From Octopus sinensis (taxonomy: Eukaryota): a stretch of 34,512 nt of DNA. The first letter of the stretch is position 1; every line of letters begins with the position of its first letter. Below, piece after piece: positions 1,879 through 30,589 of this stretch. The stretch lies in the NCBI RefSeq assembly GCF_006345805.1, contig NW_021836216.1, positions 1 to 34,512 on the forward strand, given 5' to 3'. The translations under genes were made by a program, and so were the position numbers. Under the pieces are notes generated by a model. It was not told where the DNA came from. It saw only the letters and a program-made list of their open reading frames with translations, and did not search any database.

Positions 1879-1953
1879 TTTCCTGCTGATGATAGCTGCG
1901 CCTAGCAAATTATTTTATTTGCTGAAGATAGCTTGAAACCATGGTATAAGAAA
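1879..1953 (+). ncRNA. Type I hammerhead ribozyme motif
   Basis: TTTCCTG-CTGATGA(1886-1892)-stem II (AGCT/AGCT with internal hairpin TAGCAAAT/ATTTGCTG)-GAAA(1935-1938)-CCATGG-TA-TAAGAAA. Stem I has one mismatch; GUA cleavage triplet. Confidence 0.7.
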
Positions 1954-3963: not shown

Positions 3964-4035
3964 ATGCAGGACCGGTTTCAGACTCTCCAAAATACTTTTG
4001 CCAACGTATATTTGATTTGTCCTCATCAGCTGCAT
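3964..4035 (-). ncRNA. Type I hammerhead ribozyme (canonical core)
   Basis: Minus strand reads ATGCAG-CTGATGA-GGAC...GTCT-GAAA-CCGG-TC-CTGCAT. Perfect 6-bp stem I, palindromic stem III, GUC triplet. Confidence 0.88.
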
Positions 4036-4392: not shown

Positions 4393-4464
4393 ATGCAGGA
4401 ACGGTTTCGGACTCTCCAAAATGCGTTTGCCAACGTATATTTGATTTGTCCTCATCAGCTGCAT
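4393..4464 (-). ncRNA. Type I hammerhead ribozyme (second copy)
   Basis: Minus strand reads ATGCAG-CTGATGA-GGAC...GTCC-GAAA-CCGT-TC-CTGCAT. One substitution in stem III gives a UUC triplet. Confidence 0.8.
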
Positions 4465-4515
4465 AAACAAATATATGTGTATGTATATATATATATATAT
4501 GTGTGTGTATGTATG

Positions 4516-4554
<39 letters not shown>

Positions 4555-4917
4555 GAGAGAGAGAGAGAGAGAGAGAAAGCGGTAGAAAAATAGATATATA
4601 GATAGGTAAGTAGGTAAGTAGACAGAGAGACAGACAGACATATAGATATTACATATGTATGTATGTATATATGCATGTATGAATGGATGGAAAGATGTGT
4701 GTATGTCTTTGTGCTTGTTTGTCCTCCATTATCGCTTAACAGCCGATGTTGGCTTGTTTACAGCCCTGTTACATAGCAGTTTAGCAAAACAAAAACCCAA
4801 TAGAATAAATAACAAATTTTAAAAATAAACAAATAAGAACTGGGGACCATTTGTTCGATTGAAGCTTCGGAACGGCCACAGTCCAATAACTGAAAGGAGT
4901 ATAATATAGGAGATAAT

Positions 4918-5788
4918 GCAGGAGTGGCTGTGTGGTAAGTAGTTTGCCAACCAACCACGTGGTTCCGGGTTCAGTCCCACTGCGTGGCAACTTGGGCAAG
5001 TGTCTTCTGCTATAGCCCCGGGCCGACCAATGCCTTGTGAGTGGATTTGGTAGACTGAAACTGAAAGAAGCCTGTCGTATATATGTATATGTATATGTGT
5101 ATGTGTGTTTGTATGTGTGTGTTTGTCCCCCTAGCATTGCTTGACAACCGATGCTGGAGTGTTTTCGTCCCCGTCACTTAGCGGTTCGGCAAAAGAGACC
5201 GATAGAATAAGTACTGGGCTTACAAAGAATAAATCCCGGGGTCGATTTTGTTAGTTAGTTAGTTAGTTAATTTGGCTCAAAAGCAAATAGCAAGGCCATG
5301 TAGGGGGACATGGAGTTAAGTACAGGGTGGTGTTCATGTAAAGAGTTCAGGCCACTTGAGGTCCAGGGAGGCTTTGAACAAAGCGGTCGTCGGCATCTTC
5401 ACCATCTCGTCTGGCAGCTTGTTCCACGGATCCGCAACCCGGACGGAGAAAGCTCCTCTCCTTCGATTAAATGAAATCGTCGCAGGTAGAGCTTTTCGGA
5501 ATGACCCCGCAGCCGACGCTCTGGAGCAGGAGTGAGAACAGCAGCTCCTTCGAGAGGTTACACTTCCCGCTTATGATGTTGTGGGCGAGAATGAGATCAC
5601 CACGGCGGCCGGCGTTTTTCAAGAGAATAAAGGTCGAGCGTCCTCAGCCTTTCTTCGTAGGACAAATTTTGAGACCATGAACCATGCGGGTAGCCAGCCT
5701 CTGGACTCTTTCGAGATGCTGTATGTCTTTGAGGTGTCTCCAGCATGGCCGCAGTCAAATGACTGAAACAAGTAAAAGAAGTAAAAGA

Positions 5789-6054: not shown

Positions 6055-6116
6055 GTCTTACAGCCGTTTCTGGGACAACCTAAGTGGTTGGTTAGCATGT
6101 CCGTCACATCAGAGAC
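6055..6116 (-). ncRNA. Degenerate type I hammerhead ribozyme
   Basis: Minus strand reads GTCT-CTGATG(TG)A-..GGACA...TGTCC-CA-GAAA-CGGCTG-TA-AGAC. Apparent 2-nt insertion in the core. Confidence 0.55.
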
Positions 6117-6124
6117 AAGGTATA

Positions 6125-6535
6125 CTCTTTTACTCTTTTACTTGTTTCAGTCATTTGACTGCAGCCATGCTGGAGCACCGCCTGTAGTCGAGCAAATCGA
6201 CCCTAGGACTTATTCTTTGTAAGCTTAGTACTTATTCTATCGGTCTCTTTTGCCGAACCGCTAAGTTACGGGGACGTAAATACTCCAGCATCGGTTGTCA
6301 AGCGATGTTGGGGGGACAAACACAGACACACAAACACACACATATATATACATATATACATATACATATATACGACGGGCTTCTTTCAGTTTCCGTCTAC
6401 CAAATCCACTCACAAGGCTTTGGTCGGCTCGAGGCTATAGTAGAAGGCACTTGCTCAAAGTGCCATGCAGTGGGACTGAACCCGGAACCATGTGGTTCGT
6501 AAGCAAGCTACTTACCACACAGCCGTTCCTGCGCC
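6125..6535 (-). mobile_element. SINE family A, full length
   Basis: Reverse complement of the 622-1027 element. Confidence 0.9.
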
Positions 6536-11035: not shown

Positions 11036-11470
11036 TTTACTCTTTTACTTTTACTAAAGCACAACCTTTCGTCGAGCTAAATCGATCCCAAGTTTTATTC
11101 TTTGTAAGCCTAGTACTTATATCGGTCTCTTTTGCCGAGCCGCTAGGTTACGGGGACGTAAACATACCAGCATCGGTCGTCAAGCAATGTTGGGGGGACA
11201 AAAACATAAGCATACACACACACACACAACACACACACACACACACACATACACACACACACATACATACATACATACATACATACACACACAAACACAT
11301 ATATATATGACGGGATTCTTTCAGTTTCTGTCTACCAAATACACTCACAAGGCTTTGGTCGGCCCGAGGCTATAGTAGAAGTCACTTGCCCAAGGTGCCT
11401 CGCAGTGGGACTGAGCCCGGAACCATGTGATTGGTAAGCAAGCTACTTACCACACAGCCACTCCTGCGCC
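11036..11470 (-). mobile_element. SINE family A (3' tail partly deleted)
   Basis: Ends CACACAGCCACTCCTGCGCC; body matches 6125-6535. Confidence 0.88.
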
Positions 11471-11574
11471 TATATAACGATTTTGTAACGATTTTATCAG
11501 CTGGTTGTCTCGAGGAAATAAGTCATAACCCTTTCTGAAATAGGCAAAAATGCCTGAAATTTGGTGGTGGGTTG

Positions 11575-13420: not shown

Positions 13421-14301
13421 TATATTTCGTTCTTAGATTTGGTTTGCAAGATCCTGTATGTGAGTTCGTGTGTTGAAGCATATATTGTTGGGTCTGGGGC
13501 GAGTCATTCTCTTTTAGTGCCTTCTTATTTAACACACTCACCGGTAAAGTTTCCAAACCTATTTATTTTTCCTAAAATTTTCGTTGCGTCCTGCAACCAT
13601 TTCAGTGGTGGTTGACTCAACGACTATTGAAAAGGTTGCTAGACGCAACGAAAATTTTAAGAAAGCTAAATAAGTAAATGTGAGTGTGTTAAATATGAAG
13701 GTACTAAAAGTGAATGACTCTCCCCAGACACAATAATATATATATATGATTAATGCAAGACACGGATAATGGAAGATACGAGAATCTTTATTTGTCACTA
13801 CAATTGCTAAGACCTACCTAGCATCGATTCCTGGCGGGTCGGTTACTGAGCATCTAATTTAGGTGCATCCGTTGGTGTAGATGTGTCTCCTCAGGTGATT
13901 TCAAGATGTATTTCGTTAAAATAAATACTGTTTCGTATGATAACTTCTTGGTCTGCGTACATATAAATGGCAAATTAACGTATACAACTTCATACTTATA
14001 GAATATCCGTAACAAATATCACATAAGAAAAGAAGCAAATACACAATACGGCGAATAAAGTATTAGATACAACTGTTGCTAGATAGGTGTGTACATATAT
14101 ATGTTTTAATAATATATTATTATTAATATTAGAAAGTCGATATCAAAACTCCTCAGAAAGATATGGACGTGTGAAAAATAATTGTATTAAAGATATATAA
14201 ATAAATAAATATAAATATGTATAAAAATATATGTAAATATGTATAGGTATAAATATATAATGCATATGACAGTTTAAAAGTTTTGAATTAATTATTTAAA
14301 G

Positions 14302-14393
14302 CATCTTACGATCGTTTCACAGAAGAATTGTCCCTATGATGAAGTCCTATATTGATAAGCATTTATAGACAACGCTTCTACTCTTCAGAGATA
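14302..14393 (-). ncRNA. Type I hammerhead ribozyme with long stem II
   Basis: Minus strand reads TATCT-CTGAAGA-GTAGAAG..TTGTC...GACAA..CTTCTGT-GAAA-CGATCG-TA-AGATG. Intact core, palindromic stem III, GUA triplet. Confidence 0.82.
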
Positions 14394-19290: not shown

Positions 19291-19639
19291 CGCACGTTGA
19301 TACATACACACGCGACGTTTTAATTTCATTTTTTTTCTTCTTTTCTCATACTATTTTGCATATTTGAGTCTGAAGGATTGCTTCGAAGCACACGACATGC
19401 TACAGAAGCTTGTCACATTATTGTATTTTCACAGCATGAAACTAATACTAGCTCGAATTTAAATGAGTCTATGTGTGTATGTGTGTGTGTGTGTGTGCGT
19501 GTGTGTATAAAGGCGCAGGTGTGGCACATGGTTCCAGGTTCAGTCCCACTACATGTGGTAACATGTGGTAACTATAGCATCAGATTGACCAAAGTCCTGT
19601 GAGTGGATTTGGTTGACAGAAGCTGATTTCTGAACTTAC

Positions 19640-19884
19640 AAGATACTACAATCTTATATGTATACCATTCTGCCTAAATAATGGATCTACAAATGCAATA
19701 TCCCTGCATATCTTCACGTCTATTTTCATGCCTTCACTTCACTCTCTATTTCATGTCTTACCTAAAATAAGTATGGTTTAACCATTCTCTCACACCGTTT
19801 CCGATGAAGGGATATATAAAATATCCCGGAAACAGCTGTAAGACATATTCATAAATAATGTTCTAAAATCTTTCACAGCCTTGG
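19640..19884 (+). mobile_element. HHR-bearing repeat family P, copy 1 (Penelope-like terminal repeat)
   Basis: Homologous to 22265-22504 and 29480-30146; all three end at CAGCCTTGG. Confidence 0.75.
19797..19844 (+). ncRNA. Minimal type I hammerhead ribozyme, U4C core variant
   Basis: GTTT-CCGATGA-A-GGGATAT(ATAAA)ATATCCC-G-GAAA-CAGCTG-TA-AGAC. Confidence 0.78.
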
Positions 19885-19909
19885 CTTTGCAACACGGTAT
19901 ATGCAACAC

Positions 19910-20000
19910 GGGTATATGGTGTAGTGGTTAAGAGCGCAGGCTACTAACCCCAAGATTCCAAGTTCGATTCTAGGTAGTGACCTGAATAATAATAGTAATA

Positions 20001-20041
<41 letters not shown>

Positions 20042-20180
20042 TCTTCGGAATGAGAACCCAGGTTCGAAATTTCTCCAAGACACATCAGGTGTCTTGGGGA
20101 AAGCTGGAGGGTATATGAGCCGAAACGTGTTAACAACAAACAAGGTGAGGATAAATATCCATTAAATGTAAATAATATAC
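19910..20180 (+). mobile_element. tRNA-headed SINE-like element with (AAT)n spacer and HHR-like remnant in the tail
   Basis: TGGTGTAGTGG A box and GTTCGATTC B box, then (AAT)n, then AGACAC..AGCTGGAGGGTATATGAGCCGAAACGTGTT. Confidence 0.6.
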
Positions 20181-20204
20181 ACACATATATATATATATAT
20201 ATAT

Positions 20205-20435
20205 ATCACCGTGATCACCGTGACCAACCAGACTATCAGATGTTGCTACACATCACTGGTCACAATGCGCTTTGCATTGTTTTAGCCTTCAAATGACGCC
20301 ACCCCGCTGGCTAAGCGAGCAGGCCAACAGAAGAAAGTTTGAGAGAAAGTTGTGGCGAAAGAGTACAGCAGGGACCGCCACTACTCCCTGCCGGAGTCTC
20401 GTGGAGCTTCAGGTGTTTTCGCTCAATAAACACTC
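20205..20435 (-). mobile_element. SINE family C variant, 3' part
   Basis: Matches 34265-34435 (GTGATCACCGTGACC..GATGTTGCTACACATC..GAGAGAAAGTTGTGG..AGAGTACAGCAGGGA). Confidence 0.75.
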
Positions 20436-20439
20436 ACAT

Positions 20440-20672
20440 CTATGTATGTTTGTGTGCTTTTGTGCCTGTGTCTGTCCCCACCCTCAGCACTTGACAACCT
20501 CTGTTGGTGTGTTTACGACCCAGTAATCTAGCGGTTTTACAAAAGAGGCCAATAGAGTAGTAACCAGGCTAAAAAAAAAGTAGTGGGGTCAATTCGTTCG
20601 ACTACAGTTCTTCCAGCCGGTGCCCCAGCATGGCCGCAGTCTAAATGATTAAAAACACCAAAAGATAAAAGA
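20440..20672 (+). mobile_element. SINE family A 3' half, diverged
   Basis: CTTGACAACC..GGTGTGTTTACG..GGGGTCAATTCGTTCGACT..CCAGCATGGCCGCAGTC. Confidence 0.7.
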
Positions 20673-21000
20673 TATCCGCACGAGCGCGTGTATGCGTGTG
20701 CGTGTATAGAAAGTGTCATCACTTAGTTTTAAGGCATGCGTATGTACTAATGATTAAACATTTATCATTTCCGGCCATTTAATTGTTTACTTTTCAAAAC
20801 TGTTTATAAAATGGAGAGACGTTCTCACTCTTCTAAAGGTCGGAAGTTTAAACACTCTAAAAAATTCATTAGTCTTTTCTAATTATTGACATTATTAAGA
20901 AAGCTACAGTAATTAATGCCATTTCAAACTATTTTAATTTTGAAATTTGATTATTATGCTATATTTTGGTTGTTTTAATGTTTATATTTGATTTTAATTA

Positions 21001-21185
21001 GGCGCAAGAGTGGCTGTGTGGTAAGTAGCTTGCTTACGAACCACATGGTTTCGGGTTCAGTCCCACTAGGTGGCATCTTGGGCAAGTATCTTCTGCTATA
21101 GCTCCGGGCTGACCAATGCCGTGTGAGTGGATTTGGTAGACGGAAACTGAAAGAAGCCTGTCGTATATGTATATATATATATATT

Positions 21186-21238
<53 letters not shown>

Positions 21239-21435
21239 TTGAGTATCTGTGTTTCTGCCCCTAGCATTGCTTGACAACCTGACAACCGATGCTGGTGTGT
21301 TTACGTCCCCGGAAATTAGCGGTTCGGCAAAAGAGACCGATAGAATAAGTACTGGGCTTACAAAGAATAAGGCGGTGCTCCAGCATGGCCGCAGTCAAAT
21401 GACTGAAACAAGTAAAAGAGTAAAAGAGTAAAGAG
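21001..21435 (+). mobile_element. SINE family A, near full length (internal deletion in 3' half)
   Basis: Head GGCGCAAGAGTGGCTGTGTGG, tail (GTAAAAGA)n. Confidence 0.9.
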
Positions 21436-21588
21436 ATGAGATAGTGTTGTGATGGCCGAGTGGTTCAAGAGCTCGCGATGCAACCACCAGTGTTCGGTTT
21501 CAGTTCTATTACACCGTTCCTATTCACTTTAAATTAGCTCTTTCCTTTCCCAACTCATATCCCCTTTAACGTCATTATAATTGTTGTT

Positions 21589-21790
21589 TGGCAGAACCGT
21601 TAGCACGCCGGGCAAAATGCTTAGCAGCATTTCGTCAGTCTTTACTTTCTGAGTTCAAATTCCGCCGTGGCCGACTTTGCCTTTCATCCGCTCGGAGTCG
21701 ATAAAATAAGTACCAGTTGCTCACTAGGGTCGGCATAATCAACTTTCCCTCCCCAAGAAACTATCGACCTTGTGCCAAAATTGCAACCAT
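21589..21790 (+). mobile_element. SINE family B
   Basis: TGGCAGAACCGTTAGCACGCCGGGC..GAGTTCAAATTCCGCC..GCCTTTCATCC..GTCGATAAAATAAGTACCAG. Confidence 0.8.
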
Positions 21791-21802
21791 TCTTCTTCTT
21801 AT

Positions 21803-21955
21803 TATTATTACTTCTGCCTTAGCGAAGGCGGATGTATTGTTTTCAGTCGTGTTGTTTTTTTTTGTCCCTGGACAAGATATCTCAAGAACCGCTTGATGGA
21901 TTCGGATAAAACTTTCAGGGAAGTTTAGCCTCGTTACTGGCACGAACTGATTATT
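21803..21955 (+). mobile_element. Possible non-autonomous Helentron/DINE-like 5' fragment
   Basis: TTATTACTTCTGCCT-TAGCGA-AGGCGGA hairpin followed by TGTTTTC..AAGATATCTCAAGAAC..GGATTCGGATAAAACTT, a layout resembling such elements (recalled, not searched). Confidence 0.45.
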
Positions 21956-22199
21956 TAATTTCTCAACGGTTTTGCTGCCGTTTGTTTATGTAGTTTGATT
22001 TCTTTATCTATCAGTTTCTACTAAGAAAAGAGACGCGAGTAAAATTAAGAGAAACGAAAATAACACTTTGGAAACAGCCTAAAGGGAGATAATTGAGAAA
22101 GACTTGAAAGTGAACGTAAGATGAACATATAAGATTCCAATACCTTTTCAGTAAAATCCAATTGTATTAAAATTGGTCATAAAACCCTTGATTCAATAG

Positions 22200-22504
22200 C
22201 ACTGTGTACAAACTTTATACTTGGAATGAACAATTTTAGGTACTATTAGAGTTTACTCACTAGGTATTAGAATCTTACATGCATACAATTCTGCTTAAAT
22301 AATGGATCTACAAATGCAATATCCCTGCATGTCTAACATCTATTTTCATTCCTCCATTTCACTCTCTATTTCGTATCTTATCAACAATAACTATTGCTTA
22401 ACCATTTTCTCACACCGTCTCCGATGAAGGGATATATAAAATATCCCGGAAACAGCTGTAAGACATTCTATTTATAAATGTTCTGAAATCTTTCACAGCC
22501 TTGG
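22200..22504 (+). mobile_element. HHR-bearing repeat family P, copy 2
   Basis: Homology to 19640-19884 and 29480-30146. Confidence 0.75.
22417..22464 (+). ncRNA. Minimal type I hammerhead ribozyme, U4C core variant
   Basis: GTCT-CCGATGA-A-GGGATAT(ATAAA)ATATCCC-G-GAAA-CAGCTG-TA-AGAC. Confidence 0.8.
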
Positions 22505-22559
22505 ATTTTTTTTTATTGTTAGCCGAATACCTTAACCAATAAGCTACACATACACTTAT

Positions 22560-25685: not shown

Positions 25686-26326
25686 CTGCGTTGGCCAAAA
25701 GTCACCTGACAGTAATTCAAAACCATGCAATACCGAGAATAAAACAAAAAATTATTTTATATAAGACTTCACAGGAGTCGCTGTGTGGTAAGTAGCTCGC
25801 TTACCAACCACAGGGTTCCGAGTTCAGTCCCACGGTGTTGCACCTGTGGCAAGTGTCTTCTACTATAGCCTCGGGCCGACCAAAGCCTTGTGAGTGGATC
25901 TGGTAGACGGAAACTGAAAGAAGCTCGTCGTATATATGTATATATGTATGTGTGTATATATGTTTGTGTGTCTGTGTTTGTCCCCCAGCATCGCTTGACA
26001 ACCGATGCTGGTGTGTTTACGTCCCCGTAACCTAGCGGTTCGGCAAAAGGAGACCAATAGAAGAGGTACTAGGCTTACAAAGAATAAGTCCCGGGGTAGA
26101 TTTGCTCGACTAAAGGCGGTGCTCCAGCATGGCCGCAGTCAAATGACTGAAACAAGTAAAAGAGTAAAAGAGTGATAATTTAACAAATGTTGAAAAAAAG
26201 ATTGGTGACTTTATCCCACAGCATTCAATTATTAAACATTAAACATTAAACTGAAATGAATAAAGTTGAATATTAAGTATTTATGGAAGATTTGATTTAC
26301 TGTCGGGTGACTTTTGGCCATGCCTG
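25686..26326. mobile_element. Tc1/mariner-type MITE containing a nested SINE
   Basis: About 30-bp imperfect TIRs (CTGCGTTGGCCAAAAGTCACCTGACAGTAA / TTACTGTCGGGTGACTTTTGGCCATGCCTG), flanked by TA on both sides. Confidence 0.8.
25771..26173 (+). mobile_element. SINE family A, full length, nested in the MITE
   Basis: Matches 622-1027. Confidence 0.9.
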
Positions 26327-29479: not shown

Positions 29480-30146
29480 AAGAGAATCTTACATTGCTTA
29501 CGAACTCTATATCTGGATGGACTCATATTAAACTCTGTTGGACTTTTGGATTTTACTCAAAGGACATTGGAATATTGCATATATACTATTATGCCTATAA
29601 AACGGATTTACAACTTCAATACCCATACATATCTTACACCTATTTTCTTTTCTCCACCTCACTCTCTCTTTGTATCACATCGAAACTAACTATGGCTTAA
29701 TTTTTCCTCTCATACCGTCTCCGATGAAGGGATATTATTAATTAATATCCCAGAAAGGTACTACTAGCGAACAGTGGTCTCGGTGCGCGCACTCGCGCAT
29801 CCGCGTTAGCTAGTCGTAAGTAGTCAATCCTACAACGACTTTTTAACTCTAAACCTAAACCTAACCCTAACCAATAACCTTAGTTTGTTTATGAAAATAA
29901 TTTATTTACTTAGTTTAAAAAATTATTTACTTTGCGTTTTATTTACTTTGTTATTTAATTTTCTTTGATATGTATTCAGCCTTGAAATACAAACATACGC
30001 GCAAGTCGTTCTAGGATCGACTACTTACGACTAGCTAGCGCAGATGCGCGAGTGCGCGCACCGGGACCACTGTTTGCTAGTAGTACCTCCTAGAAACAGC
30101 TGTAAGACCTTCTATCTATAAATTTTCTAATATCTATACAGCCTTG
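29480..30146 (+). mobile_element. HHR-bearing repeat family P, copy 3, interrupted by a MITE
   Basis: GTCT-CCGATGA-A-GGGATATTA/TAATATCCC-AGAAA [MITE] TCCTAGAAA-CAGCTG-TA-AGAC; ends CAGCCTTGG. Confidence 0.78.
29757..30087. mobile_element. 331-bp MITE, 85-bp TIRs, 9-bp TSD (Merlin- or Mutator-like)
   Basis: TIRs at 29757-29841 and 30003-30087 starting GGTACTACTAGC. TSD TCCCAGAAA/TCCTAGAAA. Internal telomere-like (CTAACC)-type repeats. Confidence 0.88.
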
Positions 30147-30589
30147 GTTTTTTATCTCATTACGCAAAAAATTCTTATATTTATATATACATACATATAT
30201 GTACATATATATACGTGTGTGTGAGAGAGAGTACGCCACGACGATTAACTTACCGAAAAAATTTATTGCAAAAATTTTAGGGATTTTAAAATTACACCGG
30301 AATCTGTTTGCATCTTATTAGTTTTAGTATATAAGAAATGGTGAGAATAATTCGAATAACGGTACCTTTTGTCATCAGTTGCTAGTAAACATGGCGTACC
30401 GAATATTGTCTTTTAAACTTTTTATGAAGTTTCCAGAATTATAATTTTAGCTTTATTGTTTTTGAGCCCTAGGACACGTAGGACTGGTTTCCCGGTTTCC
30501 ATAGCGTATAAATAACTGAGATCACAATATTCCTCACTGAATGGAACGCCGGTCCGTTGCGAATTTCAAGGCCAGCTATTTTGAAAGGA

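What the first reader, a model, noticed from the sequence alone, without database searches (positions are those of the whole stretch)
19797..22464. HHR family with a fixed non-canonical core (CCGAUGA, U4C), more conserved than its flanks
Seen: three copies (19797, 22417, 29717) all have CCGATGA and a purine-purine mismatch at the base of stem II. Copies 1 and 2 differ at only 1 of 56 nt across the motif (a change keeping a U-G pair), while their upstream flanks show many substitutions. Copy 3 lengthens stem II on both strands (GGGATATTA/TAATATCCC). Established: U4 is highly conserved in HHR cores. Inference: a natural core variant kept by selection on the source elements.
Basis: partly seen in the sequence, partly recalled or inferred. 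Interest (0 to 1): 0.75.

Follow-up and report, generated by a model that had tools for sequence, protein, structure and literature searches.

The report
Variant self-cutting RNA in jumping gene
These are three leftover ends of a very common animal repeat, likely a Penelope-type jumping gene, carrying a small self-cutting RNA motif with C in place of the usual U at one core position; that swap is known elsewhere to be tolerated, so this is likely a modest variant of a known kind.

Summary
All three copies read CCGATGA, and 1 of 41 core and stem positions varies among them against 66 of 206 flank positions. The motif is a type I hammerhead with a palindromic helix III, the form published for Penelope-like elements (PLEs). 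The family is abundant: 4,394-5,715 contigs per DNA run in three coded organisms, with no C-to-T row at position 4 among 40 of 149 variant rows shown.

Corrections: copy 3 is split by a 331-bp inverted-repeat insertion. The purine mismatch is already allowed in the published PLE descriptor. Copy 1's stem I change is predicted to favour an inactive fold. U4C is a known natural variant: active but slower in a viroid, active in viroid-like RNAs. This scan also noted it in a phage, and PLE hammerheads in other genomes.

What may be new is C4 as the norm of a high-copy animal repeat family, unseen by Rfam and CUGANGA descriptors. Cleavage is untested, no RT or endonuclease gene was found, and family-wide data do not confirm the conservation peak.

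The parts
19634..19888 (+). Copy 1: 5'-truncated 3' end of the repeat family
   Evidence: 86% identical to copy 2 over 258 columns
19797..19844 (+). Type I hammerhead motif, copy 1; C4 at 19802, predicted cut after 19840; one U-G pair in stem I
   Evidence: descriptor scan; folding
22117..22178 (-). Inverted 5'-truncated piece of the same family abutting copy 2; repeats the sequence of 22228-22290
   Evidence: local alignment
22179..22508 (+). Copy 2: 3' end of the family, with about 45 nt of tail after the motif
   Evidence: depth and loose ends
22417..22464 (+). Hammerhead copy 2: stem I 22417-20/22461-64, core 22421-27 (C4 = 22422), extra A 22428, stem II 22429-35/22441-47, extra G 22448, GAAA 22449-52, palindromic helix III 22453-58, predicted cut after 22460
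   Evidence: sequence
29492..29756 (+). Copy 3, 5' part; motif half 29717-29756 with C4 at 29722 and a 9-bp stem II
29757..30087 (.). 331-bp inserted element with 85-bp terminal inverted repeats (93% alike) and a 9-bp target duplication (29748-56 / 30088-96, one mismatch); likely a MITE-type DNA transposon; splits copy 3
30088..30151 (+). Copy 3, 3' part: second target-site copy, helix III, cut site, 3' strand of stem I (30097-30108) and tail
6055..6116 (-). Decayed related motif with U at position 4, a longer stem II, and similar helix III, cut site and tail

Best explanation
These are 5'-truncated 3' ends of a high-copy repeat family, likely a Penelope-like retroelement, whose type I hammerhead motif carries C at position 4 and is predicted to cut slowly and only as a dimer or with protein help. 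Shown: the motif anatomy, the self-complementary 8-nt helix III, C4 in all window copies, the abundance of the family, the inverted 5' piece and the tail. Inferred: U4C arose once in a source element and was tolerated, because it lowers but does not abolish cleavage and PLE hammerheads are slow anyway. Source lineages then diverged while the core and stems stayed under constraint, and were copied out thousands of times. Inserted copies keep the uncut motif plus the tail, as expected if uncut RNA is the template for reverse transcription. The window copies are likely dead remnants: copy 3 is split, copy 1 is predicted to misfold, and no RT gene is nearby.
For: Anatomy matches published PLE hammerheads: extra nucleotide after A9, long helix II, short helix I, palindromic helix III. 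The active dimer of copy 2 is within 0.2 kcal/mol of the dimer minimum (-31.1 against -31.3), the active monomer 3 kcal/mol above its minimum. 1 of 41 structured against 66 of 206 flank positions vary. In four runs, 0 of 13 core sites are among the 40 rows shown; in-motif variation is in loop II (22437, 22438), the pair closing loop II (22435) and 11.1 C-to-U, which keeps a G-U pair. Depth rises toward the 3' end and 10 of 15 joints shown change strand (two may be copy 2's own locus), matching the inverted 5'-truncated copies and tails described for PLEs. Natural CCGA cores self-cleave. In the one reconstituted PLE the hammerhead is protein-assisted and uncut RNA is the main template.
Against: No RT or GIY-YIG remnant in 110 of 215 candidate frames scanned, so PLE membership rests on non-coding features. 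No cleavage was measured, and the RNA run shows no pile-up of ends at the cut site (inconclusive). U4C considerably lowers activity in vitro, and single changes in CUGA gave low activity in a mutational scan. The family-wide contrast is not significant (4 of 48 against 33 of 282, p=0.63; copy-2-specific letters 0 of 48 against 16 of 282, p=0.14; core 0 of 13 is a small number). The exact share of U4 copies could not be read. In the monomer, C3 and C4 are predicted to pair with G12 and the extra G (probability 0.73 in copy 2, 1.0 in copy 1).
Confidence: 0.65

Rival explanations
1. The C4 hammerhead is catalytically dead or nearly so. It hitchhiked with a successful master element, and the stretch is conserved for another reason, such as a binding, nicking or initiation site for the element's protein.
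For: Hammerhead mutants did not affect insertion by the anole PLE in vitro. Naiad PLEs proliferate without canonical hammerheads. The fold that buries the core dominates in the monomer. No RNA ends pile up at the site.
Against: Variation spares core and stems and falls in loop II and tolerated positions, the pattern expected from hammerhead constraint. CCGA cores are active elsewhere.
Confidence: 0.17
2. C4 is positively selected as a brake. With the extra G before G12 it forms a competing helix that keeps the ribozyme off until two copies pair or the element's protein refolds it, which protects the template RNA.
For: The competing helix is the predicted monomer minimum. Uncut RNA is the main template in a PLE assay. 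Other hammerhead families in the window keep U4, so C4 is family-specific and it is kept in copies 24% apart.
Against: Copy 3 has A at the extra position, which cannot pair with C4. U4 would still pair with that G as a wobble. Fixation in a founder explains the data without positive selection.
Confidence: 0.1
3. The conservation comes from an overlapping start codon and short reading frame: an AUG sits inside the core (22424), with C4 at position -2.
For: The anole PLE ORF starts inside its hammerhead. 4 of 5 high-share variable sites in 22424-22465 are third codon positions.
Against: The frame closes after 16-17 codons in copies 1 and 2 and after 5 in copy 3. All four sites are also explained by RNA structure. 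A 1-nt insertion behind 22443 occurs in the family.
Confidence: 0.05
4. The apparent conservation is chance or gene conversion among three copies, and C4 is not the family norm.
For: Only three copies were aligned in full. Copies 1 and 2 also share a 33-nt identical run upstream. Family-wide rows give no significant peak.
Against: Scan p=0.004 over three copies. No position-4 row among the 40 best-supported of 149 rows in four runs from three coded organisms.
Confidence: 0.03

Closest known systems
Hammerheads in the pseudo-LTRs of metazoan Penelope-like elements, small-palindromic-helix-III variant (Cervera and De la Pena 2014, PMC4209133)
   Same: Type I topology, 4-bp helix I, 7-bp helix II, extra nucleotide after A9 and before G12, palindromic helix III, mostly single 5'-truncated copies.
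   Different: C4 instead of U4: 0 of 56 representatives in Fig. S3 have C4, but that descriptor demanded cuganga, so it could not have found this family directly.
[quoted passage not shown]
   Same: Same core change; cleavage shown or reported. A 2026 survey writes the core as CYGANGA.
   Different: Those are small circular RNA replicons, type III in the zeta and betaviroid-like cases. Here C4 is the norm of a high-copy genomic repeat with a weak, dimer-type hammerhead.
Poseidon element of Anolis carolinensis (Frangieh et al. 2024, PMC11167929)
   Same: Hammerhead near the 3' end followed by a tail; no RNA-seq ends at the cut site (here).
   Different: There the ORF and protein are known and the ORF starts in stem II. 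Here no ORF was found and the in-core AUG frame closes early.
Non-LTR retrozymes of animals (bioRxiv 10.64898/2026.07.22.740005)
   Same: Type I hammerhead in a non-coding repeat proposed to derive from PLE pseudo-LTRs.
   Different: Retrozymes are tandem arrays; these copies are dispersed, 2.6 and 7.3 kb apart among unrelated repeats.

Membership tests
Hammerhead ribozyme, type I | Three helices around the core, ends in helix I | tested here: met
   Copies 1 and 2 fit the descriptor; 0.007 chance hits per simulated window in 150 simulations. Copy 3 only in two pieces.
Hammerhead ribozyme, type I | C3, G5, A6, G8, A9, G12, A13, A14, A15.1-U16.1, H17 | tested here: met
   All present; 0 of 13 core sites differ among three copies.
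Hammerhead ribozyme, type I | U4 of the CUGA turn | tested here: not met
   C4 in 3 of 3 copies; a known natural variant.
Hammerhead ribozyme, type I | Match to an Rfam hammerhead model | tested here: not met
   No hammerhead family up to E=10 for copy 2 or copy 1; also none for a U4 motif at 1880-1952, so the models appear insensitive to this form.
Hammerhead ribozyme, type I | Site-specific self-cleavage | not testable with these tools
   No pile-up of ends among 601 RNA reads laid; inconclusive.
PLE-type dimer hammerhead | Short palindromic helix III and extra nucleotide after A9 | tested here: met
   The 8-mer is self-complementary and the dimer fold is near its minimum for copy 2; descriptor.
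Penelope-like element | Single ORF with PLE reverse transcriptase and GIY-YIG endonuclease | tested here: inconclusive
   No hit in 110 of 215 candidate frames or upstream of the copies; copies are 250-330 bp remnants and no genome is held.
Penelope-like element | 5' truncation with adjacent inverted copy | tested here: met
   Inverted piece 22117-22178; 10 of 15 joints shown change strand.
Penelope-like element | Hammerhead near the 3' end followed by a 30-40 bp tail | tested here: inconclusive
   About 45 nt of shared sequence follow the motif in all three copies; whether it is an optional tail was not resolved.
Penelope-like element | Tandem pseudo-LTR-ORF-pseudo-LTR arrangement | not testable with these tools
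   Copies 1 and 2 flank unrelated repeats, not an ORF; no full-length member was available.
Non-LTR retrozyme | Head-to-tail tandem units each with a hammerhead | tested here: not met
   The three copies are dispersed; arrays elsewhere in the genome were not tested.

The most novel reading that the evidence does not exclude
A very successful animal retroelement family has fixed a slower hammerhead core (C4) as a brake that keeps its template RNA uncut until it dimerises or binds its own protein, and such C4 families form a hidden layer of PLE ribozymes missed by CUGANGA descriptors and Rfam.
Probability: 0.15. Interest if true: 0.62.

Novelty: new variant of a known kind. Interest (0 to 1): 0.35.

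Why it matters
The role of hammerheads in Penelope-like elements is open: they are slow and were dispensable for insertion in vitro. A family that fixed a slowing core change yet keeps the core and stems, beside U4 families in the same genome, is a ready natural comparison for asking how much cleavage these elements need. It also shows that screens demanding CUGANGA undercount these motifs. The core change and the motif type are each already described, so the surprise for a specialist is modest.

Tried and rejected
No whole genome is held, so no genome-wide alignment was possible. Rfam over the window showed only microsatellite-driven matches in the 150 of 391 rows listed. The repeat finder was swamped by microsatellites. 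A pattern spanning core to stem I found 0 matches in viral contigs and 17 in metagenome contigs; 0 of 17 have C at position 3 and none looks like a hammerhead. The idea that the DNA upstream of copy 3 is the end of a GIY-YIG domain came from a recalled motif and was not supported; rejected. No RNA holder was listed for the stretch; this is no evidence either way. CpG decay as the source of U4 in the 6055-6116 relative cannot be told from an ancestral U4: the three motif CpGs of the C4 family read TG, TG and CA there, but its stem II is unrelated. Copy 1's U-G change as a compensatory change: rejected, since its active dimer lies 7.5 kcal/mol above the minimum. Paper searches for a retroelement family with a CCGA core showed none (25 of 29 listed). 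Luense et al. 2017 and Ambros and Flores 1998 are not held, so a prior report there is not excluded.

Full report
Setting. The window is microsatellite-rich, 23-46% GC DNA full of short dispersed repeats. It looks like an animal genome; a resemblance to octopus repeats is recalled and was not tested. No whole genome is held.

Observation. The 16-mer around the core occurs three times, exactly, against 0.02 expected. Copies 1 (19797-19844) and 2 (22417-22464) are complete type I hammerhead motifs. Each has a 4-bp stem I, the core CCGATGA, an extra A, a 7-bp stem II, an extra G, GAAA, the palindrome CAGCTG and UA at the predicted cut. A descriptor of this kind gave 0.007 hits per simulated window in 150 simulations and 4 hits in the real one. 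Copies 1 and 2 differ at 1 of 56 nt against 34 of 202 flank columns (p=0.0017; 0.035 with a free window). Copy 3 has the 9-bp stem II described, but it is split after GAAA by a 331-bp element with 85-bp inverted ends and a 9-bp target duplication; its 3' half resumes at 30097. Aligning the halves separately, 1 of 41 core and stem positions varies among the three copies against 66 of 206 flank positions (p=1.4e-5; scan p=0.004; 14 expected after adjusting for base composition), and the sliding profile has its minimum on the motif.

Family-wide view. A 561-bp stretch around copy 2 was found in part in 20 of 24 listed runs, best share 0.43. I laid 4 of the 24 on 22150-22510 at 80% likeness. Three DNA contig sets from coded organisms A, B and D gave 4,765, 5,715 and 4,394 contigs, and one RNA run gave 601 reads. 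Depth climbs toward the 3' end and peaks over 22410-22461. The tool printed 40 of 149 variant rows. None lies at position 4 (22422) or at any of the 13 core sites. The lowest share among printed rows is 0.36; if rows are ranked by share, which I infer and could not confirm, U4 is below about 36% in each run. Contig depths overweight young, uniform subfamilies. In-motif rows are 22437 and 22438 (loop II), 22435 (the pair closing loop II; 38% in the RNA run, 1% in the DNA runs, and alone it breaks that pair) and 22447 (C to U at 11.1, 51-60%, keeping a G-U pair). Against my reading, the printed rows give no significant peak over the 48-nt motif (4 of 48 against 33 of 282, p=0.63; copy-2-specific letters 0 of 48 against 16 of 282, p=0.14). 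Of the RNA reads 81% run on into unrelated sequence, as expected of copies inside host transcripts, and no ends pile up at the cut site; the same negative was reported for the anole PLE.

What the repeat is. Copy 2 has an inverted 5'-truncated piece at 22117-22178, and 10 of 15 joints shown change strand (27 not shown; two may be this locus). All three copies end about 45 nt after the motif. Inverted 5'-truncated neighbours and 30-40 bp tails are described for PLEs. The motif matches PLE hammerheads with a small palindromic helix III. No RT or endonuclease remnant was found in 110 of 215 candidate frames (the rest were short or repeat-derived and not scanned). PLE identity is therefore inferred from non-coding features, and a non-autonomous derivative is equally possible.

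How unusual is C4. In a viroid it considerably decreases activity in vitro yet permits infectivity. Another paper citing the same work says cleavage was unaffected and finds CCGA in four variants of a citrus viroid-like RNA. Zeta virus ZV1 and the betaviroid-like RNA 786 each carry a CCGA hammerhead, and both strands cleaved in vitro. A 2026 survey uses CYGANGA as its descriptor. A mutational scan found low activity for single changes in CUGA. Among PLE hammerheads 0 of 56 published representatives have C4, with the search bias noted. Searches for a retroelement family with CCGA showed none, but Luense et al. 2017 is not held. The window holds U4 motifs of other families at 1880-1952, 3964-4035 and 4393-4464 and a decayed U4 relative at 6055-6116, so C4 is a change specific to this family. 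Rfam does not see copies 1 or 2.

Mechanism. Helix III is an 8-nt self-complementary stretch. For copy 2 the active dimer is at -31.1 kcal/mol against a dimer minimum of -31.3, and the active monomer at -7.6 against -10.6. In the monomer C3 and C4 are predicted to pair with G12 and the extra G (0.73). Copy 1's stem I change strengthens that competing helix (1.0; active dimer 7.5 kcal/mol above the minimum), so it is more likely decay than compensation. I infer a slow, dimer- or protein-dependent ribozyme in which C4 was tolerated, fixed in a founder and kept under structural constraint while source lineages diverged. This fits the anole PLE, where the hammerhead cuts only with protein and uncut RNA is the main template. 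One point is unexplained: the three copies carry 16, 10 and 36 private flank differences but 1, 0 and 2 in the motif. Selection on sources explains this only if most flank differences are lineage differences and not mutations after insertion, and that could not be tested.

Papers seen. PMC4209133: parts 1-2 of 4 and the whole supplementary PDF. PMC11167929: parts 1-2 of 4. PMC3088659: passages and section 8. bioRxiv 2026.07.22.740005: part 1 of 5. Passages only: PMC9608096, bioRxiv 2026.09.16.752053 (25, 64), PMC8557442 (supplement search 73), PMC6962438, PMC6765202, PMC6155905, PMC9901934, PMC8490949, PMC13481778. Ambros and Flores 1998 and Luense et al. 2017: seen only as cited. bioRxiv supplements were not seen and could bear on the novelty claim.

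Verdict. A real and correctly read feature: a PLE-type hammerhead family with C4 as its norm. The motif type and the core change are each known; their combination in a high-copy animal repeat is a new variant of modest interest (0.35), pending a cleavage test.

Noticed in passing
window 3964-4035 (-) and 4393-4464 (-): Two copies of another type I hammerhead-like motif with canonical U4, a 6-bp stem I and a 4-nt palindromic helix III (changed in the second copy), inside 234-bp direct repeats 95% alike and about 430 bp apart. Rfam's listed rows did not show them.
   Followed up: partly
window 1880-1952 (+): A third hammerhead-like family: U4 core, extra U on both sides of a long stem II, 6-nt palindromic helix III, 5 of 6 pairs in stem I; no Rfam hammerhead match.
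   Followed up: partly
window 29757-30087: 331-bp element with 85-bp terminal inverted repeats and a 9-bp target duplication, single copy in the window; a 9-bp duplication suggests a Mutator-type MITE (recalled).
   Followed up: partly
window 22296-22330 and the matching stretch of copy 1: A 33-nt run identical between copies 1 and 2, upstream of the hammerhead; not specially conserved in copy 3.
   Followed up: partly
window 22117-22178 against 22228-22290: The inverted piece differs from the forward copy it abuts at 18 of 63 columns and carries the family-majority letters at several sites, so it may come from a different template RNA or a second insertion.
   Followed up: partly
window 22424-22477: An AUG inside the hammerhead core opens a 17-codon frame; 4 of 5 high-share variants fall on third positions.
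   Followed up: partly
window 14290-14320 (-): GAAA, a 6-nt palindrome and TAAGA resemble the 3' half of the same motif type, without a recognisable 5' core.
   Followed up: no
window, e.g. 788-1024, 4918-5126, 6129-6531, 11230-11477, 20994-21241, 25772-25981: Many copies of a roughly 200-250 bp SINE-like repeat in both orientations, 82-91% alike.
   Followed up: no
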